Shown here: in pieces, positions 37,112-64,000 of the stretch
Layout: the number at the start of each line of letters is the position of its first letter
How positions within the stretch are numbered: the first letter of the stretch is position 1
IMG/VR virus record: IMGVR_UViG_3300048587_000983
Origin: a virus
Direction: 5' to 3' (one strand)
Length of the DNA stretch: 64,000 nt
The notes under the pieces: model-generated
Told to the model about the DNA's origin: nothing
The model's input: only the letters and a program-made list of their open reading frames with translations
Databases searched by the model: none
Translations under genes and position numbers: made by a program

Positions 37112-37998
37112 CGCGCCCGCCCCGCAAAACCGGCGAGGAATGCGTCGGTGGCGACCTTCTCCTTGCCGACGTTTATGTTGATGGTATGACCGCCCTTGCC
37201 TTCGGACTTTTTGCCCGAGCCCTTGGAATCACTGTCTTTTTTTGTTTTGGGCTTCGGTTTTGAATTTCCACCTTCCGGGCTCGATTCCGCAACCCCCGGG
37301 GCACCGCCCTCCTCCATGCTAGACTCGCCGGCAGGGCCGCCCTCGCCTTCCATCGGCATCGGACCCTCACCGCCACCCTGGAAGTCTGACATGATATTTT
37401 GAGCTGTGGGGTCGCCTTCGGCGTAGGCCTGACCGGCCATCGCAGCCTCCTGCGCCGCCTGCTCCTGCATCGCAGCTTCCTCTGCGGCAGCCTCGGCCGC
37501 GGAATAAGCCCCGGGATGCGACCAGTGGCCGCAGAGCATACGAGCTGTCACGTCCTGCTTGATCGCAGGGTTGGTGCAAAAACCCGATCCGAGCTGGGGA
37601 TTCAAGGCGCGGAAATGCATGCAGTTGCCGCAGTTGCCGCCCTCGATCTCGGCAGGCAAAGTGATAAGTCCAACTGCAGCGCCGGCCTCCATGTCCTCTG
37701 GGGTGCGCGGGTCAACGCCGCCAAGCTCGTTCCACTTGAGCATTTTCTCAGGAGCAACCCCACCAGGACTGGCGCCCTCAATCATGGGGTCGGCCGGCTC
37801 AGCCTGCACATAGGTTTCCGCTGCACGTTTTTCAAATCCAGCCCAGAAATTCATTGCCATGGCTCCTGTTTTCTTAAGACGCTCGGGAAGGTCCTCGGGG
37901 GTTTCCTTCTCCCACTCGTCGATCGTTTTCTGACTCATCTTCCCCTCAGCCTTGAGGGCGTAGAACTTGCGCCTTTGCGCCATCGATTTAAAGGGCAT
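37108..37998 (-). CDS. Putative virion protein with HiPIP-like four-Cys domain
   Basis: N-terminal MPFKSMAQRRKFYA, FWAGFEKRA motif, CGNCMHF...GFC...V..RMLCGHW, and an acidic/Gly-rich tail. Confidence 0.65.
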   Translation of the reverse strand: MPFKSMAQRRKFYALKAEGKMSQKTIDEWEKETPEDLPERLKKTGAMAMNFWAGFEKRAAETYVQAEPADPMIEGASPGGVAPEKMLKWNELGGVDPRTPEDMEAGAAVGLITLPAEIEGGNCGNCMHFRALNPQLGSGFCTNPAIKQDVTARMLCGHWSHPGAYSAAEAAAEEAAMQEQAAQEAAMAGQAYAEGDPTAQNIMSDFQGGGEGPMPMEGEGGPAGESSMEEGGAPGVAESSPEGGNSKPKPKTKKDSDSKGSGKKSEGKGGHTININVGKEKVATDAFLAGFAGRAR

Positions 37999-40451
37999 CA
38001 GTCAAGCCTCGTCAAAACAATGTTATCGGCCAGCCAGTGCGTTATTCTCGGGCTGATCGGGCTTGTCGTGTACCGGGGGAAGGGGTCCGGCGCCTCCACG
38101 CGGAGGTAATCCTGACCAGTGATGACGGTGGTGGACCCGTCCGTCATGTGCACGACGGCCTCCAGCGTAAACGAGCGAATGAATGTCCCGTAGCGACGGT
38201 AGGGGTCGGTCGTCTGTTGGATGAACTGGACGATGTCGGAGTATTCGAGATCAGTCCCAGCCTTCTGCGCGTTGATAAAGTCTTTGACGAGCTCGGTGAG
38301 CGTCTCATTATCAGGAATGCTGGTGTCCGTCTCGTCCACGCGGTACTCGATGGTGCCTGACACAAACGCCGGCAGATAGTGGCGAATCAGAAAGTCCCCG
38401 TCGAGGACCCGCTCCTGATCGGACCGGCAGAAGTTGTGAAGATCGAGAATCTCCGGCACGTAGTCGTATTCCACGCGGAATGAAAGACCGATGAGGCCGG
38501 AATTGAAGACGATGTACGAGTCTTCAAAGGCCGAGAAACGGTCCGTCGGCGAGTTTACGACAAGCCTGTAATCCGCACCAGCGCCTATACCGAACGGGCC
38601 TTGACCGAAACCGCCGAGACCAAAGCCCGCGCGCCCATCAAGGAATTCTCCGGTGGGCTCAAGCGTCAACGGGTCGATAATCTCGATGGCCCGAATCCGT
38701 AGAAAGGCCACGTCGGTAATTGTGAAATCCTCCCGACCGGGACGAATGCCGCGCGTATAGCCCGTGTCATCGAGTTTTACGAGGGGGCCTATGTCGATCG
38801 AAAGTGGGTTGTACCAAAATTGGACGTAGACGACTTCGCCGTCTTTTATCCCCGTACGGCGAATGTAGTAGTTGATGCCCGACGCCGAATCGGTAAGCTC
38901 AGCATCGAGCACAAGGGTATTGTCGTCAATTTTCTCAAGAACCCTGTAATCGCCGACGTCATCACCTGTCGTGATCGTTACGATGTCATTGGCAAGGACG
39001 TTGAGAAAGACGCCCGGGGTTGGGTCGGAGAAGGTGTTGTCGCCATCGACCGTGACGCCTGTGGTCTGGGCGCCCAGCACAGAGGGACCGATCACGCGGC
39101 GAATATTGCCGTTTGGATCATCGACCTCGTAATGAGTGATCTCTGTAAAAACGATTGGCCCGTCTCCGAAGTAGACATACGGGCCGCCGCCGTTGGTGAG
39201 ACCAAAGACTGCGTTAAGAGCCGATGTGCCTGAGATAGGATCGTCGAGCACGATCTCTGAGGTGAGACCCTGGGTCGGCGAGGTGATACGGATCGAGTTA
39301 CCGGACGCAAACGCCACGTTGAAGCCAAATGCCTGGTTGATGGCGACAATAATCTCCTGACGGGATGTCGCGGAAGGCACCGCCCCGGCGACCTTGATGT
39401 TAAAGAAAACACCGCCGATCCCGATGTAGACATATTGAGCCAAAGCGAGATTGAGAGGCGAGTTCATGTTTACAGGGCTGAGGTACGAGGCCGCGGACGC
39501 GGGCTTCACCTGCTGGACGATAGGATTCTTTCCGCCAGTGCGGTCGAGATTTGTAGCGCGAACGTTGACGTAAGACGTCCCGTTGAGCTGTATGTTGCTG
39601 CTGCCGTAGGCCTGCCGCGACGTGTCTGTGAGAACGGCGACGAAGTTTTTCTCGCCCACCCGCACAGATGTCGTTTTCACGAAGCCATCCACCTTGCCGC
39701 CGATGTGAACATTATATTGAATGTCCCGCATCATCTCGGGATCCCCGAAACCTATGGGGGTGATCTGCTTCAGGAACGTGGCAAAGTTTTCAAAAAGAAT
39801 GGCGTTGATACCCTTGCCGGTGACGAGATCTCTGACGCCGATCGAGTTTTTGACTCTATCTATGTAGTCGATGTTGGTTTCGCGTGAGGCACCGCCCTCG
39901 AAAGCGAGCTTGTTTGTGACAAGAACAGCTTCCGAGTCGTTTGTGATTTCAATGAGGCCGCCGGCGTCAAGATCCCCGTCAGTCCCAAGCTCGGTGCAGA
40001 CCACCGGGATATCGTAGTAGTAATTCCCGTCTTCGATTTGAGCGGACATTTCCGTTGCGAGGATTGCGAAGGGGGAGGGGTTGGTGTAGGTTTTCCCGTT
40101 GCTCCCCGTGAAAAGCGCACCTTCAGCAGGCCATTCTCTATCGACAGGCGAGACGTAGTAGACACGCGCTGTGCCGCCGGCTTGGTCGCCCTCAACACGT
40201 GGAACGTAGAGGTTGCTGGCCAGTGCGTCAACAGCCTCCTCGGAGAAGGAGTTGGGGTCGTCCTGCTGAAGGATCCGGCGGAAGCTTTGTGCGATTTCGA
40301 GCGTGTTGGCTTCGTCAGCAAACGGCTGCAGAATAAACTGCATCGGCTTGAAGAAAAGCGCTTCAAACCCCGTGCCTGGGCGCACGTCAAACTTGGGATC
40401 GTACTCCGTAAGACGTGTTCGCAGAAAATCCGCAATCGGTAGTTGTGCCAT
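37998..40451 (-). CDS. Baseplate J-like wedge protein (817 aa)
   Basis: GG...ETN..YI.R...SI..R.LVT.KGI...L..NF is the baseplate J pattern. Follows a gp25-like gene. Confidence 0.8.
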   Translation of the reverse strand: MAQLPIADFLRTRLTEYDPKFDVRPGTGFEALFFKPMQFILQPFADEANTLEIAQSFRRILQQDDPNSFSEEAVDALASNLYVPRVEGDQAGGTARVYYVSPVDREWPAEGALFTGSNGKTYTNPSPFAILATEMSAQIEDGNYYYDIPVVCTELGTDGDLDAGGLIEITNDSEAVLVTNKLAFEGGASRETNIDYIDRVKNSIGVRDLVTGKGINAILFENFATFLKQITPIGFGDPEMMRDIQYNVHIGGKVDGFVKTTSVRVGEKNFVAVLTDTSRQAYGSSNIQLNGTSYVNVRATNLDRTGGKNPIVQQVKPASAASYLSPVNMNSPLNLALAQYVYIGIGGVFFNIKVAGAVPSATSRQEIIVAINQAFGFNVAFASGNSIRITSPTQGLTSEIVLDDPISGTSALNAVFGLTNGGGPYVYFGDGPIVFTEITHYEVDDPNGNIRRVIGPSVLGAQTTGVTVDGDNTFSDPTPGVFLNVLANDIVTITTGDDVGDYRVLEKIDDNTLVLDAELTDSASGINYYIRRTGIKDGEVVYVQFWYNPLSIDIGPLVKLDDTGYTRGIRPGREDFTITDVAFLRIRAIEIIDPLTLEPTGEFLDGRAGFGLGGFGQGPFGIGAGADYRLVVNSPTDRFSAFEDSYIVFNSGLIGLSFRVEYDYVPEILDLHNFCRSDQERVLDGDFLIRHYLPAFVSGTIEYRVDETDTSIPDNETLTELVKDFINAQKAGTDLEYSDIVQFIQQTTDPYRRYGTFIRSFTLEAVVHMTDGSTTVITGQDYLRVEAPDPFPRYTTSPISPRITHWLADNIVLTRLD

Positions 40452-52861: not shown

Positions 52862-54733
52862 ATGCGGGTCTCGGTAACCTTTTGGAAAGATGCCATCCTT
52901 CTTCACTGGGACAAAATCCTTCCGCCCGAACTGCAAAAAGCCTACGAAGATCTGGACGAAACGGAAAAAGAGAAATGGGACCCCTTCGAGGCGATCCGCG
53001 TTTACTGGCGCTCGGTCGGTGCCTACGCGCGGTTCTCCGAGAAGCGGAAAATGTTCGTAATGACGTTTTCCGGCCAGAACCTCTTTCGGCTCAAAAAGCA
53101 GTTTGGCGACTTCGAGGTGTCAGGCGGCCGCGAAAAATTGAATGAGATTCGATCAAAATTTGAAGAGTTTCGGGCGATGCGCGCCGCTGCGCTTCGCATC
53201 AAGCAGGACCCATCGCCCGAGCCTCTTCCCTTCAAATGCCCACCCCGCGGGCTCTACCAGCATCAAGCCATCGTCTTCCTTTTAAACATGCGCGCAGCCG
53301 GGCTTTTCGCCGACTGCGGCCTTGGAAAGACGTACATGGTCCTTGTCTCAACCGAGATCCAGATCAATGCTGGAACCGTCGGGCGGGGCAAAACGCTCAT
53401 CTGCGGCAAGCTTATGACCCTCGAAACGGGCTGGCTTGAGGATGCGAAAAAATTCACAAACCTTAAGGTCGTCATGCTCTGGCTGCCGCCAGGCACGAAG
53501 AGAAAGGAAAAGCTCCGAAAGCTCCTGGCGGAGGAGGCTGACGTTTACGTCATCAACCACGAAGGGGTTCCCGTACTCGAAGAGGAGCTAGTGGCGAAGG
53601 AGTTTGAGAAGGTCGTGGTCGACGAGAGCACGGTTCTTCAGGGCTATCACGGCGAGCTCTCCAAATCCGGCAAGATCGGCAAATCCCTTCTTCGGGTCGC
53701 AGCCAAAGCCAGCTGGCGCGTGATCATGTCGGGAACACCGGCCAGCAATGGCATCGAGGGGCTGTGGGGCCAGTTTTATTTTATCGATCCGAACGGCTTT
53801 CTACTGGAGCCGAACTTTCACGACTTCAGAACGACCTTCATGGACCAGGTCTACGTGGGCTCGCGCGAGCGCAGCCCGTCCCTTCCAGGGATGCCTGCGA
53901 AAGAGCCCATTGAAATGAAAAAGTGGGTTCAACTGAAGGGCTCCGCCGAGAAAGTGGCCTCCATCATAAACCCCTACGTCTTTAGGGCGGAGCTTAGGGA
54001 GCACCTGAAGGACCTGCCTCCTCTGACAACCATCATCCGCAAGGTACCGATGGATAAAAAGCAGGAGCTCCACTACGAGGAGATGCGCAAAAGCCTCAGC
54101 ACCATCGTCAACGACGAATTCATTTCAGTGGACCAGAAGCTTCATGCCATCATGAAACTCCGCCAGATAACCGGCGGCTTTCTCATCGATCAGACCGACA
54201 CAGTGCACCCGCTTGCCGTCAATCCAAAGATGGAGGCGCTTGACGTGCTGATCGACGAGGAAATCGACTCAAGCAAAAAGGTCATTATCTATGCCGAGTA
54301 TGTCTATGAAATAGAAGAGATCGTTCGGCGGTATAAGAAGCATGGAATTGTTTCCGTCTACGGCGGCAACAGCGGGGCGCAAAACCTCGCCAACGTCAAA
54401 GCCTTCATAAACGATCCCGCCATCCGGCTCGCGGTGCTTCACCCGAAGTCCGCCGCTCACGGGATCACGTTCGTAAACGCTCACTACATGATCTTTTATT
54501 CGCAAAGCTATTCGGCAGAAAACAACTACCAGTGCGTCAAGCGCATCGAAAGAGGGGGTCAGCAGCATGCCATGTTCGTTTATTATCTTTTGGCAAAGCG
54601 CCAGTATTCAAAGTCGCCCTCCATCGATGAGGACATCCATCAGGTCGTCAAAGACAAGCTCTCCGCCCAGAGCGAACTCATCTCTCAGCAACAATCAATA
54701 AACACGACGCTCCTTAACGCTTATCGGGGATAA
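52862..54733 (+). CDS. SNF2-family (SF2) helicase/ATPase
   Basis: Motif I LFADCGLGKT, motif II VVDEST, motif III SGTP, KLRQITGGF, and motif VI QCVKRIERGGQ. Confidence 0.9.
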   Translation: MRVSVTFWKDAILLHWDKILPPELQKAYEDLDETEKEKWDPFEAIRVYWRSVGAYARFSEKRKMFVMTFSGQNLFRLKKQFGDFEVSGGREKLNEIRSKFEEFRAMRAAALRIKQDPSPEPLPFKCPPRGLYQHQAIVFLLNMRAAGLFADCGLGKTYMVLVSTEIQINAGTVGRGKTLICGKLMTLETGWLEDAKKFTNLKVVMLWLPPGTKRKEKLRKLLAEEADVYVINHEGVPVLEEELVAKEFEKVVVDESTVLQGYHGELSKSGKIGKSLLRVAAKASWRVIMSGTPASNGIEGLWGQFYFIDPNGFLLEPNFHDFRTTFMDQVYVGSRERSPSLPGMPAKEPIEMKKWVQLKGSAEKVASIINPYVFRAELREHLKDLPPLTTIIRKVPMDKKQELHYEEMRKSLSTIVNDEFISVDQKLHAIMKLRQITGGFLIDQTDTVHPLAVNPKMEALDVLIDEEIDSSKKVIIYAEYVYEIEEIVRRYKKHGIVSVYGGNSGAQNLANVKAFINDPAIRLAVLHPKSAAHGITFVNAHYMIFYSQSYSAENNYQCVKRIERGGQQHAMFVYYLLAKRQYSKSPSIDEDIHQVVKDKLSAQSELISQQQSINTTLLNAYRG

Positions 54734-54737
54734 TCTT

Positions 54738-57700
54738 ATGGATATGGCACGGAAGATCGAAGTTTTTCGCGCGCGCTTTCACGGACGGCAGGACATCTTT
54801 GGCCGCGCAAGGAAGGTCGGCAAGGAAGGCGAAGAGAGAACGGTTTACTCGCCCGTTTGCAATAACATCTGGACCTCCGTCTGCCATATCGAGCGGGGGA
54901 CCGGCGTCCCCTGCAGTGACTGCGAGAACCAGCTGTGGGAGCCGGTCTCAGACCAAAACGTCAAACAGCACATCACGGCTCACCACGTCCACAACTACTA
55001 TCTCGTCCTCGACGAGGGGATGATTCGGTTTGGGGCAATAGACTTCGATTATAAGCCGGGCAAGGAAGCGCAGGGCTATAGCTTTTTCGAGGTGAAAAAG
55101 TTCTGCAAAATCCTTAAAGCGCGCGGCATCGACTACGGCATCGCCCGCAGCACAAACAACGGCTACCACGTCTACGTCTTCTTCAAAGAGCCTTACCCTG
55201 CAGTCCGCTTTCGCGCGGTCATGTCGAAGTTTTTTGAGGCGGCAGGCTTTGACATTTATGTGAAAGAGCGTGCAAAACCGGCCTTCCCCGAGATCTTTCC
55301 CAAGCAGGACTACGTGAGCCAGGGCTTTCTCGGCAACGGCATCACTCCACCCATGATCGAGCCCCTTATGATGAAGGGGAAAAAGTGCTGGGTCGATGAC
55401 AACGATGTCATGATCGGCCAGGAGATCGAAGACGGCCAGGCCATGATCGACGCCCAGTGGGACCATCTCGAAAACCTTCCGTGGGCGGATCCGGCCGCCT
55501 TTGAAAAGATCATCGAGCACTATGCGCTCAAGATCGAGGACATTGCGGTACTGAAGAAAAGAGCTGTGGAGAGCGCCAGTCGGCAGATCGTAGGCGATGG
55601 CAGTGCAAGACCCCACGGGCACATTGAAAAGGTGCTTTATGGGTGCGAGGCTTTCCGTGATCTTACGGCCCGCATCAGAGGCGAAGGCCATGAGCCCTCG
55701 CACGTCGAGGGGATGGCGCTCTGGCATTTGGCTATCAACACCGTCGACGGCAAGGACTGGTTTCAAAAAAACGTCACGACCTGGGGGCGGACGCAGAGCG
55801 AAGCCAAGCAGCTCGAGTTCTCGATCAAAAAGAACTACCGGCCGCATAGCTGCAGCACCATGAAAGAGCAGGGGATCTGCCACAAGCAGGGTCTTTGCAT
55901 TGAGGCGGCGCCCCGCCCCAAGGCAAAACCGGGCGAAGCCGAGATCACTGAAGGTGCGCTCGAAGACCTCAATGAACAGGATCAAAAGGAGTATAACCCC
56001 TACCGCTTTGCCTTTAGCCAAGGCGCGGAGCTTCTTCACGAGCTCACAAAAGGGGCAGACTCGCTTCTTCAGGTTGAGGATCAGCTTCAAAAAGAGGACG
56101 GACTCCGCGAGCTTGCACGGCGAGCCCAGGCCCTCGACAAGCCCAAGGTCAAGCAGTTCAAAGAGTACGTCGATCGCATTCAAAAGCCCCTCAAGGTGCC
56201 AAAGAACAAGATCGGCCCCATGTTCAAAGCCGCCGAGGAAGCCAAGTTCGAGCTGGAAAAGGTCATGCTCGAAGAGGATAGCTCCGTCTACGAGGTGGGC
56301 TCCTATGTTTACAGAAAGCGTTATGGTGGTGGAAAATATGGGTACTACCAGATCACAAAGGGCAAGGACCAGCTCACCGAAACCCTTCTTCTGGAGGTCG
56401 ATATCCTGATCCATGAGGTGCGCTACTACATGGAAGAGAGCGGCATCAGTCGAACGGTCTACCGGGGCATCGTAAAAGACGCCGACGGGGAAAAGTCGTT
56501 TGAGATTGATACCGACGTGTGGTCAACCGATTCGGATTTTGTGAAGTTTTTCACAAAGCTTATAGGCCCGAAGTTTCAGCCCAAACGAAAGCAGATCGAC
56601 GATGTGAAGCAGGCTGTCCTCGGCTGGAGCGAAAAGAAAAACCTCATGCAAAAGGTTTCCTCGCTCCTTACCCAGGGCTTCTATGAGGGGACCTACCTCA
56701 TGCCTTCAGTGACGGTCGACGCCGGCGGGCTTCGCCCGACAAAATCCGGAGTTCTCGACACCTCGCACAAGGACGTTGTCAAAAACCTCGACTGGAAAAT
56801 CCTCGAAGACGACGTTTTCCAGGAGACCCTCCGTCACATCAAAGATGACTTTCTCTCGGCGTGGCCTGATGAGTGGACCTACATCGGCCTTGCCCACGTC
56901 ATGCGGCCCCTTATGATGAAGGTCATGGGCTGGTCTCACTTTCCGACGCTTTTCTACGACGGGCTTTCGGGCATTGGAAAGTCAGAGCTCCTCAAGATCC
57001 TCCAGATGTTCTGGGGCAACTTTTCCTCCCTTGTAAACCTCACGGTCACGCAAAAATACCTCGAAGAGATGGCCCACGAGTTTAACGATGCCTGCCTTGT
57101 TCTCGACGACTTCAAGGGGATTACGCCTCAGCAGAAAAACGCTGTGATGCACCAGATCCAGTATGGCTACGACGGCAGCTCAACGGGAAAACTCAACCGC
57201 GATTCGACGGCGAGAAAGGCCCGGAAAAACCGGGCAACTCTCATCATGTCAGGCGAAGGCTTCATCCAGCATCAGGCGTCCGTTGTGGCCCGAACGCTTC
57301 TCCTTGAGGTCCACCGCTTCAATAACGACATGACCCACGAAGCCTATTTCCGCGTGCAAAAGATGGCGAAAAACTACGCAGGGATCACCCCTCGTTTTCT
57401 TCACTGGCTTTTGGGCCGCGAAGCGAAGATCCTTCAGGATGACTACGAAGCTCTCCGCATAACGCTCTACCGCTTTGCCAAAGGCCGGCAGAACGCGAGC
57501 CGCATTGCCGAGAACGTGGCCGGAAACCACCTGACCTGGAGGCTTTTCACCTCGTTCATGGAGGACTCGGCCGTGATCACAACATCCGAGCGTGACCAGA
57601 TGAACGAGCGGCATTGGGCCATCTGCCAGTCGCTCTATCACCGGATGGTCTTTCGCTGCGAAGAGGAGCAGGAGGCGACCAACTTCAAGTCGATTCTTCT

Positions 57701-58118
57701 CGCTCTCATCCTTTCGGGCAAGGTGCGGGTCGAAGGTCTTCACCAGAGTGTCGAGGCTCTCAGGGCACCCGTTGTCGGCTATCTGCCTGACCCCAGCGAT
57801 CCGAAGACGGGCTACTACTACCCCGAGACGGTCATGAACGAGATCAACGAGGTGATGCGGCAGCAGGGGACAAGCCTTCCGAAAAAGACGGTTGGTCGTC
57901 AGCTGCTCGATGCCAAGATCATCAAAGAGGTGGATAGCGATCGGAGCACAAAGCTCGTTCGCAAGGGCAACGCCCGCATCCGCGTCTGGGTGATCGACCA
58001 CGTTGCACTGGAGCTCATCGATCCGGATGTCGTGCAGGAAACGGAATCGCCGAAAAGCACAGTCGTTCCGCTTCGCCAGGGGCAGAAGGCCATGATGGAC
58101 GGCTATGGGATTTTCTAA
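54738..58118 (+). CDS. Primase-helicase: AEP (TOTE-primase-like) + Cys-cluster domain + DUF927-like/P-loop ATPase
   Basis: RFHGRQDIF, FGAIDFD (DxD), RSTNNGYHVYVFF (His motif), Walker A YDGLSGIGKS, Walker B CLVLDD. Confidence 0.85.
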   Translation: MDMARKIEVFRARFHGRQDIFGRARKVGKEGEERTVYSPVCNNIWTSVCHIERGTGVPCSDCENQLWEPVSDQNVKQHITAHHVHNYYLVLDEGMIRFGAIDFDYKPGKEAQGYSFFEVKKFCKILKARGIDYGIARSTNNGYHVYVFFKEPYPAVRFRAVMSKFFEAAGFDIYVKERAKPAFPEIFPKQDYVSQGFLGNGITPPMIEPLMMKGKKCWVDDNDVMIGQEIEDGQAMIDAQWDHLENLPWADPAAFEKIIEHYALKIEDIAVLKKRAVESASRQIVGDGSARPHGHIEKVLYGCEAFRDLTARIRGEGHEPSHVEGMALWHLAINTVDGKDWFQKNVTTWGRTQSEAKQLEFSIKKNYRPHSCSTMKEQGICHKQGLCIEAAPRPKAKPGEAEITEGALEDLNEQDQKEYNPYRFAFSQGAELLHELTKGADSLLQVEDQLQKEDGLRELARRAQALDKPKVKQFKEYVDRIQKPLKVPKNKIGPMFKAAEEAKFELEKVMLEEDSSVYEVGSYVYRKRYGGGKYGYYQITKGKDQLTETLLLEVDILIHEVRYYMEESGISRTVYRGIVKDADGEKSFEIDTDVWSTDSDFVKFFTKLIGPKFQPKRKQIDDVKQAVLGWSEKKNLMQKVSSLLTQGFYEGTYLMPSVTVDAGGLRPTKSGVLDTSHKDVVKNLDWKILEDDVFQETLRHIKDDFLSAWPDEWTYIGLAHVMRPLMMKVMGWSHFPTLFYDGLSGIGKSELLKILQMFWGNFSSLVNLTVTQKYLEEMAHEFNDACLVLDDFKGITPQQKNAVMHQIQYGYDGSSTGKLNRDSTARKARKNRATLIMSGEGFIQHQASVVARTLLLEVHRFNNDMTHEAYFRVQKMAKNYAGITPRFLHWLLGREAKILQDDYEALRITLYRFAKGRQNASRIAENVAGNHLTWRLFTSFMEDSAVITTSERDQMNERHWAICQSLYHRMVFRCEEEQEATNFKSILLALILSGKVRVEGLHQSVEALRAPVVGYLPDPSDPKTGYYYPETVMNEINEVMRQQGTSLPKKTVGRQLLDAKIIKEVDSDRSTKLVRKGNARIRVWVIDHVALELIDPDVVQETESPKSTVVPLRQGQKAMMDGYGIF

Positions 58119-59648: not shown

Positions 59649-59660
59649 GATGATCAGAAG

Positions 59661-59817
59661 TGGGGGAGGCAGGACTCGAACCTGCGAAGCCTCAAAGACT
59701 GAAATGCTCAGCCGTGCACGGCCGGAAATCTCAGCCGACGGGGCCCGGCGCCAGACCCGCATCAGAGACAGGGGATTTCCTGAATGTCCCCCTGCTTTGC
59801 CACTTGCATACTCCCGC
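59661..59817 (-). ncRNA. Atypical tRNA-like RNA (157 nt) with 11-nt anticodon loop and 85-nt branched variable arm
   Basis: Acceptor GCGGGAG/CTCCCCC-A (one C.C mismatch), D arm TGC-AAGTGGCAAA-GCA, anticodon stem GGGGA/TCCCC with loop CATTCAGGAAA, canonical T arm GCAGG-TTCGAGT-CCTGC. Confidence 0.8.
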
Positions 59818-59823
59818 CGTAAG

Positions 59824-60210
59824 TGGACCTGGCGGGAGTTGAACCCGCGTCCGAAAGACAAAGGCAATGACAGCTCTACATGCTTGTCCCCGGGTCAACT
59901 CCGGGGCGAGGAAGGGTGCACCGGTTAGGGTGCAGCTCCACCAGCCAGGATCTGGCTACGGCTCCTGGCGGCCGCTTTTGCCCTCAGATGACCCGCTGAC
60001 GGCGACGGGGCTGGTCGGATAACGGCACGGGCCAGCACGCTCCCTGGCTGCGATTAGGCGGCCAGCGCGACCTTTTCAGCCTTGCGGCCGAACTCTACGC
60101 GGATGACATTATCGGTGTCATTTAGGTTTTGCCTCGGTTGTTATCGGGCCCCAAGACACGCCCGGCATGCACCGGCACTCTTCGCCTCCCGTCGAAACCA
60201 TTACAGGCCC
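59824..60210 (-). ncRNA. ssrA: tmRNA (transfer-messenger RNA)
   Basis: 5' GGGCCTGTAATGGTTTCGACGGG; 3' GCGGG-TTCAACT-CCCGC-CAGGTCC-A; acceptor stem with G3.U pair (Ala identity); internal tag ORF ending ALAA*. Confidence 0.95.
60054..60119 (-). other. tmRNA proteolysis tag reading frame (A)DTDNVIRVEFGRKAEKVALAA*
   Basis: Resume codon GAC after AAAACCTAAAT; C-terminal ALAA ClpXP-type degron. Confidence 0.85.
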
Positions 60211-60345
60211 TCGGGCTTGGTCCCGGAGACCCCAAGCGCTGGCAGCGTTTCTGGCCTTCCGGGATTGCAGCGTACCATTGCGAAGCCAGCATACCTGGCC
60301 CAATGTCAATCGTCATCCACAAACCAAAGCTGATTTGGAGTTTTC

Positions 60346-60624
60346 ATGCACAGCACAGATTATTACGTAAACCGCGCCCTAACAAATTTCCGTCATCCTG
60401 AATACTTCCCAACCAAGGCCCACGAAAAGATTTTTGCGCTCATGGAGCTCGACGGCACATTCCGATCCGACCTGCTCGGGCTGACCTACAGCCACGTCGT
60501 AGAAAAAGACCGATGCCGCCAGCGCATGCAGGAGTTGCGGTCGTGTATTGCTGAAAGTGGCCACCCGTTCAGCGAAAAAGCGCTCGAACGCCTCGCACGG
60601 ATCGAGCGCTCCATGCTGAGCTAG
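60346..60624 (+). CDS. Hypothetical protein (92 aa)
   Basis: SD (GGAG) and ATG; divergent from ssrA. Confidence 0.65.
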   Translation: MHSTDYYVNRALTNFRHPEYFPTKAHEKIFALMELDGTFRSDLLGLTYSHVVEKDRCRQRMQELRSCIAESGHPFSEKALERLARIERSMLS

Positions 60625-61817
60625 CCTCTCCCAAAGGCCTTTCTCACCCACTTGTCGAAGTCGATGCTGATCGTATAGTGGAGGAGCGCGTGAGCAAAAA
60701 CGGCTGCCGCAACGAGAAGAAGGGCCCTGACACCAAGGGTCACGTCAGCCCGCGACTTCTCGGCGGTGGCCTCCACAGTCTGCCGACTCCCGCCTTCAAT
60801 CTCTGTCATTCGAGCAGAGATTTTTTTTAGCTCTTCGGCTTTCTGATCGCGGAGTGTCGGGTGCGTTCTGAGGTTGATCCCATCGCGCTCCAGCTCTCCC
60901 TTGGCGTACTGAATTTTCAGTCTCTGGTATTCAGCGTTGCCGTCGAGCGTTGAAACACTGATCCCTGCGGTTTCGATCTTATGGAGGGCCCCGACCGACA
61001 ATAGGTCCACCCCGAGGAAGAGGGCCAGCGCCAGGTAGCGCACAACCGGGATTTTGACAAAAAAGACAAAGGCCAGAGGAATCAGCACTAAAAGCGTGGC
61101 GATGCCTGTTCCATAGAGCGCCTCGGTGGCGGCTATGAGATAATAGGACATAAAGCCAATCAGGGTCAGAAGCACGAGAGTGCTGAAAACGGTTTTGGTC
61201 GGCGACGGCTGGGGCACCAAACGCATGGGGCTCGTCCCAGCCGTTTTTTCCTTTTCCTCCGACCTTTCTGAGTTCAGTTTCACCCTTTTCACTCGGCGCA
61301 CTGAATTCAGAACTGACTTTTTCTTCGGCATCGGCGCGTCGGCGGCTGGTGACTCAGAATCCTTGTCCTTCAGGGGTTCAGCAGCCTTCTGAAGTTCAGG
61401 TTCTGCCTCAGCACGTTTTTTCTGCGGCGGCATTTCGATCACAACACCCTCTCCGATATGGTGCAGGTGGCTGACTCTGATGGACTGCATCTGCTCGATC
61501 ATCGCAGCCACTTCCGCCTCGGTAATCTCCCTTTCAGGGGGAGGCGGCTCTGAGTTCAGTATGCCAGGACTTTCCGTGTCAGTATCGGATTCTGACTCCG
61601 GATCTGAATTCAGAGGCTCCACTTTGAGAGCTGACGATCCATCAAAATTACCGGTTTCTGCTGGCAGATGCGCACCATACTCCCGCTGGAGAAAAGCCAA
61701 AATATCCTCTTCGCGGACATCGCGGCCGCGTCGATAGCTGATGGCGTTATCCACGGATTTTCTAACCTGAGGGTCCTTGATTCGGGCTCTAAACTGTGCG
61801 ACTTTCTCTCGGGACAT
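60621..61817 (-). CDS. Multi-pass membrane protein with long acidic N-terminal region (398 aa)
   Basis: Three adjacent hydrophobic segments (TVFSTLVLL...; GIATLLVLIPLAFVFFV; YLALALFLGVDLL), a coiled coil and a C-terminal TM; SD AAGGAGG. Confidence 0.75.
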   Translation of the reverse strand: MSREKVAQFRARIKDPQVRKSVDNAISYRRGRDVREEDILAFLQREYGAHLPAETGNFDGSSALKVEPLNSDPESESDTDTESPGILNSEPPPPEREITEAEVAAMIEQMQSIRVSHLHHIGEGVVIEMPPQKKRAEAEPELQKAAEPLKDKDSESPAADAPMPKKKSVLNSVRRVKRVKLNSERSEEKEKTAGTSPMRLVPQPSPTKTVFSTLVLLTLIGFMSYYLIAATEALYGTGIATLLVLIPLAFVFFVKIPVVRYLALALFLGVDLLSVGALHKIETAGISVSTLDGNAEYQRLKIQYAKGELERDGINLRTHPTLRDQKAEELKKISARMTEIEGGSRQTVEATAEKSRADVTLGVRALLLVAAAVFAHALLHYTISIDFDKWVRKAFGRG

Positions 61818-61852
61818 CGTTTGCCTCCTTATCAGGTAAAACGTTTCGCCTC

Positions 61853-61882
61853 GCTGGTGCAGGACTCCCTTCCTGCGCCGGC
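61853..61882 (+). other. 12-bp GC-rich hairpin
   Basis: GCTGGTGCAGGA-CTCCCT-TCCTGCGCCGGC; two G.U wobbles work only on the plus-strand RNA. Confidence 0.6.
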
Positions 61883-62320
61883 AACCCTACCAGCACAAAA
61901 ACCCGCCTTCAATCAATTTTCAGTCATTGCATGGAATTGGCATAGACGCGAAAAATACTGACCTACGGTCTTTTCCGTAGAGCTTCAACTTTTGGGTGAT
62001 GGTAATTGGAAGTGCGTCAGAGGCGTGCTTGAGGCTGGAAGGCTTGATGAGTATGGCCGGGACGCTTCATCCCAAAATTAACGTGGATTTTTTCATCCCG
62101 GCCATGCAAATCATAGATTGCTATACCATGGATCTGCCGTGTGAATTTTCTCAGGACGCGCACGATAAATCCCTGGAACGGTTTCTATTACGACCTCGCT
62201 TCACAGTCAAGCGAAGATCTTTGCGTTTTCGTGCGATCTCCACAAGGCACGGAAATCAGTCCTCAAACCGTCTTCGGGATTTAACCTGCTCTGAAAAACC
62301 TACACCCATATCCCCGTGGT

Positions 62321-62830
62321 TTGGCCGGTGCGGAATCGGCTGCGACGAAACCGGTAGTCGGGGAGATCTTCCTTGCCAGAACTCCCCATAGGCAAAGGCA
62401 CATGGACACGGTAAAGGCTGCCATGAATCAAAGAGGCCAAGGGTCAGATGACCCGACCCGAGTTCCGGGATTGAATCCTTTGGAGACACTGGAAACTGCG
62501 AATGACCCCGCCAGTGATAAAGGACCCCCGGGGCTTGGAACGATGGACAGAGGGTAGGGCGACAGGGCCCCGCAAGGGTCTTTGGGAACCAGGAATGATC
62601 GGGCCTAGGCAACCCGGTCCCATTCCGGCTCCACTTCGCAGTTGGCTGAGCTCATCACTGCATGATGCAAAACGGGGAGATAGATGCGCCCCAGGTTTCC
62701 ATGAGCCCACCGATGTCCACAGCATAGACCTGCTCCCCCGAGCAGTGACAGGGTGAAGAGTCCTTCGCCCATCTCCCGGACGCCTTTTCAAGGCAGATGC
62801 AGGAGAGTTGGGGGTCCGCGCTTTCTCCAC
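62321..62830 (+). ncRNA. Unidentified large structured RNA candidate (~510 nt) upstream of cas6
   Basis: More than 12 nested stems, multibranch junctions and a perfect 8-bp long-range pairing (62522-62529/62810-62817). G.U pairs favour the plus strand. No convincing ORF. Confidence 0.6.
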
Positions 62831-62924
62831 AAGGCCCATCCTTCCGAAAAACCTGAGCTTGAATATTTTCCGTGAACGGGTCACATAAGATAAAACCGAA
62901 AAACTTCAAGTCGAGGGAATAGCG

Positions 62925-63416
62925 TTGCTCTATTGCTACGATACTGGCAGGCCGCCAGATTTAAACGATGTGCATGCGATTATAAGAAAGGCATTCAAAG
63001 AGCGGGTTGCTGTAAGCGTCGAGGGTACCAGGGTTTACGTTGCCACAACCGAGACGCCGCTCGTAACCCCGGACGCCACCTTTGATATGCTGCGCCTCCC
63101 CGAGGGCACTGTTGAGGTTGAGCTGTCGTGCAATGTCGTCTTTGATAGCAAGAGCCAAGGCATTTTCCGAAAGGAGTGGCGGACGCACGAGGCCTTTGCC
63201 ATGTTCACGGCGCAGGCCGGCCTCAAGCCTATAGACTCAGAGATCTATAACCTCGGCCTTCTTGAAACCCACAAGTTCACGATCCGAACGGCTTTCCGCA
63301 TCTACGGCCAATTCAATATTGTCAACCGGGAGCTATTCGACAACGCATATTTCAACGGGGTCGGCGGGCGCCGCTCGTACGGCTTTGGTCTGATCATCAT
63401 CAAAGATTTCAAATAA
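62925..63416 (+). CDS. cas6: Cas6-family (Cas6e/CasE-like) RAMP endoribonuclease, short (163 aa)
   Basis: C-terminal Gly-rich loop FDNAYFNGVGGRRSYGFGLI (GhGxxxxxGhG), N-terminal DVHAII..AF His helix; TTG start with SD GAGGGA. Confidence 0.8.
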   Translation: MLYCYDTGRPPDLNDVHAIIRKAFKERVAVSVEGTRVYVATTETPLVTPDATFDMLRLPEGTVEVELSCNVVFDSKSQGIFRKEWRTHEAFAMFTAQAGLKPIDSEIYNLGLLETHKFTIRTAFRIYGQFNIVNRELFDNAYFNGVGGRRSYGFGLIIIKDFK

Positions 63417-63428
63417 GATGGGAACCTC

Positions 63429-64000
63429 ATGCAAATCAAAACGATCACAGTGAAAGCCGACCTCGACGTAATCGGTATCGTCAACATGAACGGCCGCTCG
63501 ACGACGGCCAAGCAAAAAAACCATCTCTTCGCAAAAAGGGACGCCCTCGGCTTTGACTTCACGTCGAGCCGCCTTCTTCGGCGGACGATCTTCGCTGACC
63601 TCATGCCGCGTCAGCCGGCAACCCGCGAGATGTATGACAACGCGGTGCCCATCGCGGCTTCCATGATAGGGATTGTACGAGGGCTCATGATGCCTGAGCG
63701 CGGCTGCAAAAGGACGAGCCCTCTTTGCGTTCTTGATGCCTACACGCGAAAGGAATACACGCGCCAAAGGAAGACCACTGAGGGGCTTGATGCGCGGGCT
63801 TATCGGGCCACATTCAGTGACATTGGCCGCAGCTCAAAGCCGCAGGAGACAAACCTCACGAATAAAAAAGGCGAAAAAGTAAGCGACACGAGCTTTTGGA
63901 GCAAGGACAACGCCGGCAGGCGTCTTCAGGATTTTGAAGCCAAAATCGATTTCTCCGCTCTGAGCTTTATCTCGCTCAACTACGGCGACGACGCCATTAT
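63429..64000 (+). CDS. cas7: Cas7-family protein resembling Csp1 (type I-B/I-PGING), partial
   Basis: Not in ORF track (runs off the end). MQIKTITVKADLDVIGIVNMNG...TSSRLLRRTIFADLMP...IGIVRGLMM...KRTSPLCVLDA...DTSFWSKDNAG...IDFSALSFISL matches in order the Csp1 blocks as I recall them (L...GIVN, SS..LR..IF...P, G..RG.M, KR.SPL...DA, DTS...K...G, D...L.FIS). Confidence 0.75.
   Translation, partial: MQIKTITVKADLDVIGIVNMNGRSTTAKQKNHLFAKRDALGFDFTSSRLLRRTIFADLMPRQPATREMYDNAVPIAASMIGIVRGLMMPERGCKRTSPLCVLDAYTRKEYTRQRKTTEGLDARAYRATFSDIGRSSKPQETNLTNKKGEKVSDTSFWSKDNAGRRLQDFEAKIDFSALSFISLNYGDDAI

What the first reader, a model, noticed from the sequence alone, without database searches (positions are those of the whole stretch)
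62925..64000. Phage-encoded Cascade-like operon pairing a short Cas6e-like gene with a Csp1-type Cas7
Seen: a 163-aa ORF with the Cas6 C-terminal Gly loop and N-terminal His, then 12 nt later an ORF carrying the ordered Cas7/Csp1 motif blocks. Established: Cas6e normally belongs to type I-E and Csp1 to the I-B/PGING variant, and jumbo phages are known to carry reduced CRISPR-Cas loci. Inference: this is a hybrid or reduced RAMP effector. It could be a targeting complex against competing elements, a Cas3-less transcriptional repressor, or a sponge/anti-CRISPR. No cas1/2/3/5/8 and no array occur in the window, but the locus is cut at 64000.
Basis: partly seen in the sequence, partly recalled or inferred. 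Interest (0 to 1): 0.8.

Follow-up and report, generated by a model that had tools for sequence, protein, structure and literature searches.

The report
Phage mini-Cascade with hairpin guide array
The window ends inside a three-gene, nuclease-less CRISPR effector operon (short Cas6, Cas7fv-like, Cas5fv-like) carried by a large phage; in close relatives it is followed by an unusual array of tiny hairpin repeats that standard CRISPR finders would probably miss.

Summary
Window 62925-63416 encodes a 163-aa protein with a Cas6e fold. Twelve bases later, 63429-64000 holds the first 190 aa of a Cas7, which is Cas7fv-like (type I-F2/I-Fv) and not Csp1.

Seven syntenic metagenomic relatives, one of them 90% identical in DNA, show the rest of the locus:
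- a Cas5fv-like gene;
- a 1.2-2.7 kb gene-free stretch holding roughly 15-40 units, each a 4-5 bp hairpin (GCUC-loop-GAGC) followed by G-N-U-A-G.

Intervals between units cluster at 31, 37 and 43 nt, that is 6-nt steps matching one Cas7 footprint. About a third of one array is conserved at 85% between two lineages, while synonymous sites in the cas genes are only about 49% identical.

No cas1, cas2, cas3, cas8 or DinG was found in the window or within about 6-10 kb in relatives. A distant chromosomal relative has the same gene order with Cas5 fused to Cas3 and a canonical 28-nt repeat ending GUAGAAAG.

Best reading: a phage-borne, adaptation-less and nuclease-less derivative of I-F2 Cascade with hard-wired guides. 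Its targets are unknown.

First-stage notes of this scan on the start of the same contig already describe the other half (rest of cas7, cas5, array). Verdict: a new variant of a known kind.

The parts
62925..63416 (+). cas6: a 163-aa short Cas6e-fold RNA endonuclease candidate (invariant His17; C-terminal GVGGRRSYGFGL loop)
   Evidence: ORF; Pfam/NCBIfam/PADLOC Cas6 and Cas6e hits on residues ~120-160; AF2 model pLDDT 85 and Foldseek top hits 4dzd/4tvx/4u7u/2y9h (Cas6e/Cse3), TM 0.67-0.70; 11 homologues of 62-94% identity
63429..64000 (+). cas7fv-like: first 190 aa of a ~307-aa backbone subunit, cut by the end of the window
   Evidence: NCBIfam NF040577 Cas7fv E 1.3e-10; PADLOC Cas7fv 5e-7 and Cas7f 1e-5; full-length orthologues of 307-309 aa in most relatives (332 aa in L009) carry Pfam PF28157 Cas7fv-like and match PDB 5o6u_C/9g44_F Cas7; L012 is 90% identical in DNA up to base 64000
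62906..62924 (+). ribosome-binding region of cas6 (GAGGGAA, 8 nt before the TTG start)
   Evidence: read directly from the sequence; no sigma-70-like promoter found in 61700-64000

Best explanation
Window 62925-64000 is the 5' half of a phage-borne, reduced type I-F2-like CRISPR effector operon, cas6 - cas7fv-like - cas5fv-like. In every relative examined it runs straight into a long array of mini-repeats. Each repeat is a 4-5 bp hairpin (GCUC-loop-GAGC) followed by a G-N-U-A-G-purine-rich handle.

Inferred mechanism:
1. The operon and the array are transcribed together.
2. The short Cas6 cuts at the 3' base of each hairpin and stays on it.
3. Cas5 caps the GNUAG 5' handle.
4. Four to six Cas7 copies coat guides of about 24, 30 or 36 nt.
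5. The complex binds complementary DNA.

No nuclease, helicase or adaptation gene is linked. The default action is therefore nuclease-independent interference, that is blocking transcription or replication, at conserved targets in the host or in rival elements. The guides are inherited and selected, not freshly acquired.

Shown: the protein families and folds, the synteny, the repeat anatomy, the 6-nt length steps, selection on part of the guides, and the absence of cas1/2/3 nearby. Inferred: processing, assembly, DNA binding, and what is targeted.
For: Proteins:
- Cas6e fold.
- Cas7fv homology.
- Gene 3 best matches Cas5 of I-F2/I-Fv complexes: Foldseek 9g44_B and 5o6u_F, E 6e-5 and 9e-5, probability 0.97-0.98; VIA Z 6.7 over 235 residues; Cas5e chains at Z about 6; Atlas top cluster is Cas5.

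Synteny: the order cas6-cas7-cas5-gap is conserved in all relatives with DNA.

Array, over 7 arrays totalling 11,978 nt:
- The anchor CGNTA[AG] occurs 181 times on the + strand and 5 times on the - strand.
- 150 of 181 anchors (83%) are directly preceded by a hairpin of 4 bp or more, against 26 of 316 (8%) outside the arrays.
- Twelve stems use G-U pairs that work only in + strand RNA, and about 10 show compensatory variants.
- Intervals peak at 31, 37 and 43 nt. Rayleigh R for a period of 6 is 0.416, p about 2e-7, with 0 of 20,000 jittered nulls reaching it.

Selection and ancestry:
- In collinear L004/L012 blocks the spacer-side columns are 85% identical, against about 49% at 4-fold sites of cas6/7/5. 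Some guides are shared by 3-4 lineages.
- The chromosomal relative L023 has cas6 - cas7 - Cas5::Cas3 and a canonical 28-nt repeat ending in a hairpin plus GUAGAAAG.
- I-Fv Cascade is known to adjust its Cas7fv copy number to crRNA length (PMC4937334).

Missing genes: no Cas1/2/3/8/DinG among 46 window ORFs, and no such Pfam family within about 6-10 kb in relatives.
Against: - No RNA data: transcription, processing and complex formation are untested.
- No target was found for any guide in the window, the relatives' flanks, phage, plasmid, viral or genome collections.
- Only 64 kb of a genome of about 178 kb was visible to me, so a Cas3-like nuclease or self-targets could lie elsewhere.
- The Cas5fv assignment rests on a moderate fold match (Z 6-7, global TM 0.26) and on context. 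No HMM hits the phage protein itself.
- The array of this very genome was not readable by me. Its existence rests on first-stage notes and on the 90%-identical L012.
- Shortening I-Fv spacers by 6 nt abolished immunity in E. coli (PMC4937334), so guides of 24-30 nt may bind but not license cleavage.
- The conserved-block statistic is ascertained on alignable blocks, which cover about one third of the array.
Confidence: 0.55

Rival explanations
1. The complex is the same, but it is a true DNA-degrading system that borrows its nuclease. It would recruit a Cas2-3/Cas3 encoded by the host, or elsewhere in the ~178-kb phage genome, and destroy host or rival-phage DNA.
For: In I-F2 the Cas7 subunits themselves recruit Cas3 without Cas8 (PMC12956352). 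A distant chromosomal relative fuses the Cas5-like protein to a Cas3fv-like helicase, so the lineage once worked with Cas3. Only 36% of the genome was visible to me.
Against: No Cas3 family hit among 46 window ORFs or within about 6-10 kb in relatives. A word search of the first-stage notes on the other windows of this genome returned no note describing a Cas3 or Cas1 gene. The phage Cas7 is only about 29% identical to the Cas3-linked relative. Guides shorter than 32 nt failed to give interference in the I-Fv model.
Confidence: 0.25
2. The RNAs act on RNA rather than DNA. Cas6 would mature a battery of small RNAs that, coated by Cas7 and Cas5, pair with host or phage transcripts for post-transcriptional control.
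For: The guides are conserved, vertically inherited and numerous, like a regulatory sRNA set. No PAM-reading large subunit and no nuclease is present.
Against: Every characterised Cas7fv/Cas5fv complex binds double-stranded DNA through Cas5-read PAMs. No complementary transcript region was found in the 64-kb window or in the flanks.
Confidence: 0.08
3. It is an anti-CRISPR decoy. The hairpin array and Cas proteins would soak up or mis-assemble host Cas components, as RNA anti-CRISPRs do, and the inter-hairpin sequences would be mere filler.
For: Phages are known to carry repeat mimics that disturb host Cascade assembly (PMC10651486, listed). The repeats are degenerate, and no target was found.
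Against: Filler would not be length-quantised in 6-nt steps. Filler would also not be held at 85% identity while synonymous sites fall to about 49%. The phage carries a complete Cas5-Cas6-Cas7 set of its own, all under purifying selection: 79-88% amino-acid identity against 43-59% at 4-fold sites.
Confidence: 0.07
4. One reading: a hybrid effector joining a type I-E Cas6e to a Csp1-type (I-B/PGING) Cas7.
For: The Cas6 does have the Cas6e fold.
Against: NCBIfam and PADLOC scans of the Cas7 at E up to 1 returned only Cas7fv and Cas7f. The sequence match to solved structures is to Cas7fv of 5o6u/9g44. The neighbouring gene is Cas5fv-like.
Confidence: 0.02

Closest known systems
Type I-F2 (I-Fv) CRISPR-Cas of Shewanella putrefaciens CN-32 and relatives (Cas7fv, Cas5fv, Cas6f, Cas2-3, Cas1; PDB 5o6u, 5o7h, 9g44)
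   Same: Three-protein Cascade with no large or small subunit. The Cas7 is homologous to Cas7fv. The third protein has a Cas5 core with an inserted helical domain, like Cas5fv. The repeat ends in a hairpin followed by an xUAG-purine 5' handle. The backbone length can follow the crRNA length.
   Different: Differences from I-F2:
- Cas6 has the Cas6e fold and is only 163 aa, instead of Cas6f.
- Gene order is cas6-cas7-cas5.
- No Cas1 and no Cas2-3.
- It is carried by a large phage.
- Repeats are about 17-22 nt with variable loops instead of identical 28-mers.
- Spacers are about 24, 30 or 36 nt instead of 32.
- HMM scores are far below the equivalog cut-off (41-64 bits against 200).
Chromosomal relative found here (L023, a 2.0-Mb bacterial contig): cas6 (153 aa) - cas7fv-like - Cas5-like::Cas3 fusion with a two-repeat array
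   Same: Same gene order and homologous proteins: Cas6 hhalign probability 99.2, E 1e-19; Cas7 29% identity, E 9e-41; Cas5-like part E 4.5e-10. The repeat is a hairpin plus GUAGAAAG, the same handle type as the phage units.
   Different: It has a Cas3fv-like helicase fused to Cas5 and a canonical 28-nt repeat with a 60-nt period. It sits in a cellular chromosome beside the ribosomal protein operon.
Type IV-A CRISPR-Cas and type I-F3 transposon-borne Cascades (nuclease-free, adaptation-less class 1 effectors on mobile elements)
   Same: Carried by a mobile element; no Cas1/2 and no Cas3; expected to act by binding rather than cutting. One PADLOC type IV-A3 Cas6 model hits the Cas6 C-terminus (E 3e-6).
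   Different: No DinG helicase, no Csf1/Csf2/Csf3, no TniQ or transposase nearby. The backbone proteins are I-F2-like. The arrays are far longer and their repeats are degenerate.
Phage-encoded type I-F system of Vibrio phage ICP1 and the reduced CRISPR loci of huge phages
   Same: A CRISPR effector encoded by a phage; other large phages are reported to lack adaptation or nuclease genes (my own knowledge; ICP1 papers are listed).
   Different: ICP1 has Cas1, Cas2-3, Csy1-4 and normal arrays. I found no paper in the library describing a Cas7fv/Cas5fv set with a hairpin-GNUAG array.

Membership tests
Cas6e (CasE/Cse3; Pfam PF08798, TIGR01907) | Profile match above the curated cut-off over the whole protein | tested here: inconclusive
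   PF08798 scores 25.1 bits against a cut-off of 25, but only on residues 124-160. TIGR01907 scores 19.6 bits against a cut-off of 45.2.
Cas6e (CasE/Cse3; Pfam PF08798, TIGR01907) | Two-RRM (ferredoxin-like) fold with a C-terminal glycine-rich loop | tested here: met
   AF2 model with pLDDT 85. Foldseek top 10 are all Cas6e/Cse3 (4dzd, 4tvx, 4u7u, 5h9f, 2y9h, 3qrq), E 1e-6 to 3e-5, TM 0.61-0.70. GVGGRRSYGFGL is invariant. The protein is about 30 residues shorter than Cas6e.
Cas6e (CasE/Cse3; Pfam PF08798, TIGR01907) | Catalytic histidine on the first helix and metal-independent cleavage at the 3' base of the repeat hairpin | not testable with these tools
   His17 lies in helix 13-23 and is invariant in 12 sequences. 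That it corresponds to Cas6e His20 is my recollection, not a test. Cleavage is untested.
Type I-F2 / I-Fv CRISPR-Cas | Cas7fv backbone subunit | tested here: met
   NF040577 gives E 1.3e-10 for the window fragment and 1e-17 for full-length relatives, but 41-64 bits is below the equivalog cut-off of 200. PDB Cas7fv 5o6u_C E 4e-8. Pfam PF28157 on orthologues. This is a family-level relative, not an equivalog.
Type I-F2 / I-Fv CRISPR-Cas | Cas5fv (Cas5 core with a helical PAM-reading insertion) and no Cas8 or Cas11 | tested here: inconclusive
   This gene is seen only in relatives. Fold matches: 9g44_B and 5o6u_F (E 6e-5 and 9e-5, probability 0.97-0.98), VIA Z 6.7 over 235 residues, Atlas top cluster Cas5. 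No HMM hit on the phage protein. Cas5fv E 0.0034 appears only in one distant homologue. No Cas8/Cas11 gene is present in the loci.
Type I-F2 / I-Fv CRISPR-Cas | Cas6f as the processing enzyme | tested here: not met
   No Cas6f model hit at E up to 1. The fold is Cas6e-like.
Type I-F2 / I-Fv CRISPR-Cas | Cas2-3 nuclease-helicase and Cas1 in the locus | tested here: not met
   None among 46 window ORFs. No such Pfam family within about 6-10 kb in relatives. The remaining ~114 kb of this genome was not visible to me.
Type I-F2 / I-Fv CRISPR-Cas | Array of identical 28-nt repeats with 32-nt spacers | tested here: not met
   Relatives carry units whose conserved core is only GCUC-loop-GAGC-G-NUAG. 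Periods are mostly 41-57 nt and intervals are 31, 37 or 43 nt. No Rfam CRISPR-DR family matches. The canonical form is met only in the chromosomal relative L023.
Csp1-type Cas7 (subtype PGING / I-B variant) | Sequence profile match to Csp1 | tested here: not met
   NCBIfam and PADLOC scans at E up to 1 returned only Cas7fv and Cas7f for the fragment and for full-length orthologues.
Type IV-A CRISPR-Cas | Csf1/Csf2/Csf3 effector with a DinG helicase | tested here: not met
   Only a C-terminal Cas6 hit to a IV-A3 Cas6 model (E 3e-6). No DinG or Csf hits in the window or in the relatives' gene tables. IV-A3 Cas7 chains are weak fold hits only (E > 0.01).

The most novel reading that the evidence does not exclude
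A family of ~180-kb phages carries a self-contained, nuclease-free Cascade with 25-50 hard-wired guides. The guides are kept by selection and evolve without Cas1-Cas2, through point mutation and through gain and loss of units. Their lengths are set in 6-nt steps by the Cas7 footprint. The phage would use this as a natural multiplex CRISPRi to silence conserved host or rival genes. Because the repeats are conserved mainly as structure, such arrays would go unseen by CRISPR finders, so this kind of system could be much more common than is recorded.
Probability: 0.35. Interest if true: 0.85.

Novelty: new variant of a known kind. Interest (0 to 1): 0.72.

Why it matters
The proteins belong to a known kind (class 1, I-F2-like Cascade), but four features are unusual.

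1. It is a complete Cas5-Cas6-Cas7 effector on a phage with no nuclease and no adaptation module.
2. Its array has repeats reduced to a 4-5 bp hairpin plus a five-base handle motif with variable loops. No Rfam CRISPR repeat family matched it, and I expect repeat-identity-based CRISPR finders to miss it.
3. Guide lengths fall naturally at about 24, 30 and 36 nt. This would be a natural counterpart of the engineered finding that I-Fv Cascade adjusts its Cas7 copy number to crRNA length.
4. Part of the guide set is conserved across lineages whose synonymous sites are near saturation. This points to fixed, important targets rather than an ever-changing immune memory.

If the complex binds DNA as proposed, it would be a natural multiplexed CRISPR-interference device of only about 2.5 kb of genes. 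That is of interest both for phage-host biology and as a compact tool. It also links to a chromosomal sister form with a Cas5-Cas3 fusion, which gives a path for how a defence system was cut down and taken over by a virus.

Tried and rejected
- **Source of the window.** No whole genome is held. There was no near-identical DNA in the phage or plasmid collections or in IMG/VR. The exact Cas6 protein is not on record.
- **Relatives in collections.** The search for related loci with the Cas5-like and Cas6 alignments found nothing in the metagenome, viral or genome collections. Relatives came only from the look-up of encoding contigs.
- **Covariance model.** The MAFFT alignment of 69 units was ungapped and out of register for the different loop lengths. 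I used my own anchor-based counts instead.
- **Self-target searches.** All arrays against the window and flanks gave only repeat-to-repeat hits and a shared promoter-like motif. The best true spacer hit (16/16, E 0.04) is no better than shuffled controls.
- **Phage and plasmid target searches.** BLAST of the L012 array gave chance-level hits. The best one (Burkholderia phage SURPRISE13, 33 nt, E 0.01) spans a hairpin rather than a spacer and was rejected.
- **Genome pattern scan.** A conserved guide gave 4 scattered hits in unrelated phyla, against about 3 expected.
- **Viral pattern scans.** Two guides gave none. One guide matches 21 of 22 bases inside a lysozyme-like ORF of one IMG/VR phage (4 contigs). 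Roughly 0.3 such hits are expected by my own estimate of the collection's size, and the match does not extend over the whole guide, so I do not count it.
- **Promoters and terminators.** The sigma-70 promoter and terminator scans were uninformative.
- **ESM Atlas.** The feature search for the Cas5-like protein gave no usable hit.
- **Upstream ORFs.** ORFs in 61996-62756 were considered as a gene. They were rejected because the reading frame is not conserved while the DNA is.
- **Complex prediction.** Not used, because a pass for Cas5/6/7 would rest on likeness to solved Cascades.
Full report
**1. The observation**

The ORF at 62925-63416 (+) has a TTG start preceded by GAGGGAA and encodes 163 aa. 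The next ORF starts at ATG 63429, 12 nt after the stop, and is still open at base 64000.

Profile searches hit only the last ~40 residues of the first protein: Pfam PF08798 E 2.4e-5, TIGR01907 E 9e-4, PADLOC Cas6 2.6e-6, type IV-A3 Cas6 3e-6.

Eleven homologues of 62-94% identity are 163-173 aa long, so the short length is native. His17 and the loop GVGGRRSYGFGL are invariant.

An AlphaFold model built on that alignment has pLDDT 85. Its ten best matches in the PDB are all Cas6e/Cse3 (4dzd, 4tvx, 4u7u, 5h9f, 2y9h, 3qrq; E 1e-6 to 3e-5, TM 0.61-0.70). 'Short Cas6e-like' is therefore correct.

The second ORF matches Cas7fv (NF040577 E 1.3e-10; PADLOC Cas7fv 5e-7, Cas7f 1e-5). No Csp1 model matches it.

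**2. What lies beyond the window**

No genome is held for this window. Exact-protein look-ups of the homologues gave syntenic metagenomic contigs.

- L012 is 90% identical in DNA to window 59651-64000 and serves as a proxy for the missing part.
- Wherever enough upstream DNA was held, the contigs show an SNF2 helicase, a ~1130-aa AEP primase, small genes, a tmRNA and a reverse 377-425-aa gene. All of them then show cas6 (163 aa), cas7fv-like (307-309 aa in most, 332 in L009), a third gene of 359-381 aa, and a gene-free stretch of 1.2-2.7 kb.
- The window has the same upstream genes: SNF2 at 52862-54733, AEP primase at 54738-58118 and tmRNA at 59821-60210.

First-stage notes of this scan on the start of the same contig, 113.8 kb before the window start, describe 'Cas7fv + Cas5fv' followed by about 29 hairpin-GNTAG units. 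The locus therefore seems to be split by where the assembly was linearised. I could not read that DNA myself.

**3. The third gene**

It has no HMM or PDB sequence hit. Its model (pLDDT 75) has a beta-alpha-beta core with a helical insertion at residues 117-250.

- Foldseek's only significant hits are chains 9g44_B (331 aa) and 5o6u_F (336 aa) of the I-F2/I-Fv complexes (E 6e-5 and 9e-5, probability 0.97-0.98).
- The Cas7 chains of those entries are 322 and 315 aa, so by length these chains should be the Cas5 subunit.
- VIA-align gives Z 6.7 over 235 residues for 5o6u_F, followed by Cas5e, I-A Cas5 and Cmr3 at Z 5-6. The nearest Atlas cluster is Cas5.
- A profile search of 1.84 billion representatives found only 29 relatives, so the family is rare.

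**4. A chromosomal sister system**

One distant relative of the third gene, the only protein of that length (1010 aa) among those scanned, carries a Cas3fv-like part (PADLOC E 6e-33). Its locus L023 lies on a 2.0-Mb bacterial contig beside the ribosomal protein operon and secY.

- The locus reads cas6 (153 aa), cas7fv-like (336 aa) and a Cas5-like::Cas3 fusion. It is followed by two copies of a canonical 28-nt repeat ending in the hairpin CGCCCG-UGCA-CGGGCG plus GUAGAAAG, 60 nt apart.
- The phage Cas6 profile matches its Cas6 at probability 99.2 (E 1e-19). The two Cas7 proteins are 29% identical (E 9e-41).

The phage system is thus a cut-down member of an I-F2-like lineage that elsewhere works with Cas3 and normal repeats.

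**5. The array**

The gene-free stretch is filled with units of the form (Y)GCUC(C)-loop of 3-6 nt-(G)GAGC-G-N-U-A-G/A followed by purines.

Counts over seven arrays (11,978 nt):

| Measure | Arrays | Outside arrays |
|---|---|---|
| Anchor CGNTA[AG], + strand | 181 | 316 (both strands) |
| Anchor CGNTA[AG], - strand | 5 | - |
| Anchors directly preceded by a hairpin of 4 bp or more | 150 of 181 (83%) | 26 of 316 (8%) |

- Stems are GCUC/GAGC in 124 units and GCUU/GAGC in 12. The latter is a G-U pair valid only in + strand RNA. About ten stems are compensatory variants such as GCGC/GCGC, GCAC/GUGC and GCGU/ACGC.
- Loops include GNRA and UUCG tetraloops.
- The first unit overlaps the cas5 stop codon in L012.
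- No Rfam CRISPR repeat family matches.
- The handle resembles the 8-nt 5' handles that I recall for I-E (AUAAACCG) and I-F (CUAAGAAA). It matches the GUAGAAAG of L023.

**6. Guide lengths**

The distance from the 3' end of one hairpin to the 5' end of the next has peaks at 30-33 (n=31), 36-38 (n=33) and 42-44 (n=8), with troughs between them.

The 6-nt periodicity is the strongest of those tested: R = 0.416, Rayleigh p about 2e-7, and 0 of 20,000 jittered or normal nulls reach it.

After subtracting a 7-8-nt handle the guides are about 24, 30 and 36 nt, or four, five and six Cas7 footprints. This repeats on other DNA what a first-stage note reported for this genome's own array. It also fits the published finding that I-Fv Cascade, having no large or small subunit, changes its Cas7fv copy number with crRNA length (PMC4937334).

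**7. How the array evolves**

- Arrays of contigs from different samples within a lineage are identical or nearly so. Unit positions are the same in L001-L003 and in L004-L006. L012 and L013 are 99.7% identical over 4,088 nt.
- Arrays of L004 and L012 are collinear, with insertions and deletions of units.
- In the alignable blocks (352 of 1,084 nt of the L004 array), the spacer-side columns are 85% identical. Four-fold degenerate sites of cas6, cas7 and cas5 in the same pair are 59%, 43% and 49% identical.
- Several guides recur in three or four lineages.

Part of the guide set is therefore under purifying selection and inherited vertically. The rest has been replaced or has diverged. This is not the picture of Cas1-Cas2-driven turnover, and it argues against the spacers being filler.

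**8. What is missing**

- PADLOC found no Cas1, Cas2, Cas3, Cas8, Cas10 or DinG among 46 window ORFs. It found only an SNF2 helicase, a PrimPol/AEP and a 2OG oxygenase.
- The relatives' gene tables show no such Pfam family within about 6-10 kb.
- The element is a phage. The window has a baseplate J-like protein at 37998-40451, a weak portal match at 2-1912, and phage-type helicase and primase matches. Relatives carry a CHAP lysin.

**9. Targets**

None was found. See 'tried and rejected'. This is the main gap in the argument.

**10. Mechanism and verdict**

The anatomy supports a crRNA-guided Cascade in which:
- Cas6 cuts and holds the hairpin;
- Cas5 caps the GNUAG handle;
- 4-6 Cas7 copies coat the guide.

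With no nuclease linked, I favour binding-only interference at conserved targets (0.55). The main rival is recruitment of a Cas3 supplied in trans (0.25). In I-F2 the Cas7 subunits recruit Cas3 directly (PMC12956352), and the sister system is fused to Cas3.

Library searches found no description of such a system. I rate it a new variant of a known kind and of high interest. The part inside this window is only cas6 and the first 190 codons of cas7.

Noticed in passing
window 61954-62906 (+): About 950 nt of conserved non-coding DNA lies directly upstream of cas6. The whole 61818-62924 intergenic region is 94% identical in L012 and 75% in L004. The 61954-62906 part is 81% identical in L010, above the ~74% DNA identity of the L010-window alignment as a whole. 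The reading frame is not conserved. RNAalifold on 4 sequences gives 252 pairs, 38 with compensatory changes, closed by a long-range stem. There is no Rfam match. It is absent from the L001, L007, L009 and L011 lineages, so it is not an obligatory partner of the Cascade.
   Followed up: partly
window 59821-60210 (-): A phage-encoded tmRNA (Rfam RF00023, 104.6 bits; ARAGORN tag peptide ending AEKVALAA). It is conserved in the relatives L004, L012, L001, L009, L007 and L011.
   Followed up: partly
L023 6323-11600: A bacterial chromosomal locus beside the ribosomal protein operon and secY. It reads short cas6, cas7fv-like and a 1010-aa Cas5-like::Cas3fv-like fusion, then two small ORFs and a two-repeat array (28-nt repeat, 60-nt period). 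No cas1 or cas2 lies within 8 kb. It may be an undescribed I-F2-like subtype in its own right.
   Followed up: partly
L001 13647 and 14574; L004 14882; L009 14701; L007 6785; L011 8714: A conserved motif of about 28 nt (TTGGTATAAG...GTAGGAAAGGA) closes the arrays and recurs upstream of downstream genes in relatives. It resembles an extended -10 promoter plus 5' leader. It is not enriched in the window.
   Followed up: partly
L011 4269-5046: In one lineage cas6 is 195 aa and a 61-aa ORF is inserted between cas6 and cas7. This is a variant architecture of the same operon.
   Followed up: no
window 60621-61817 (-): A 398-aa protein with an acidic, low-complexity N-terminal half and several predicted membrane helices. 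It has no family match but is conserved in position (377-425 aa) upstream of cas6 in all relatives.
   Followed up: no
window 52862-58118 (+): An SNF2-family helicase (PHROG 62, E 1e-94; PADLOC ZorD/DpdE-like) and a 1126-aa AEP-TOTE primase form a conserved pair 5-10 kb upstream of the cas genes in every relative where that much upstream DNA was held. It is probably the replication module. No evidence links it to the Cascade.
   Followed up: no
L019 5784-5805 (IMG/VR contigs L019-L022): One conserved guide (GTACAA.AT.TCGTACGACAA, present in L004, L012 and L011) matches 21 of 22 bases inside a lysozyme/SLT-like ORF of an unrelated viral contig seen in four samples. About 0.3 chance hits are expected and the match does not cover the full guide. 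It is a weak lead only.
   Followed up: partly
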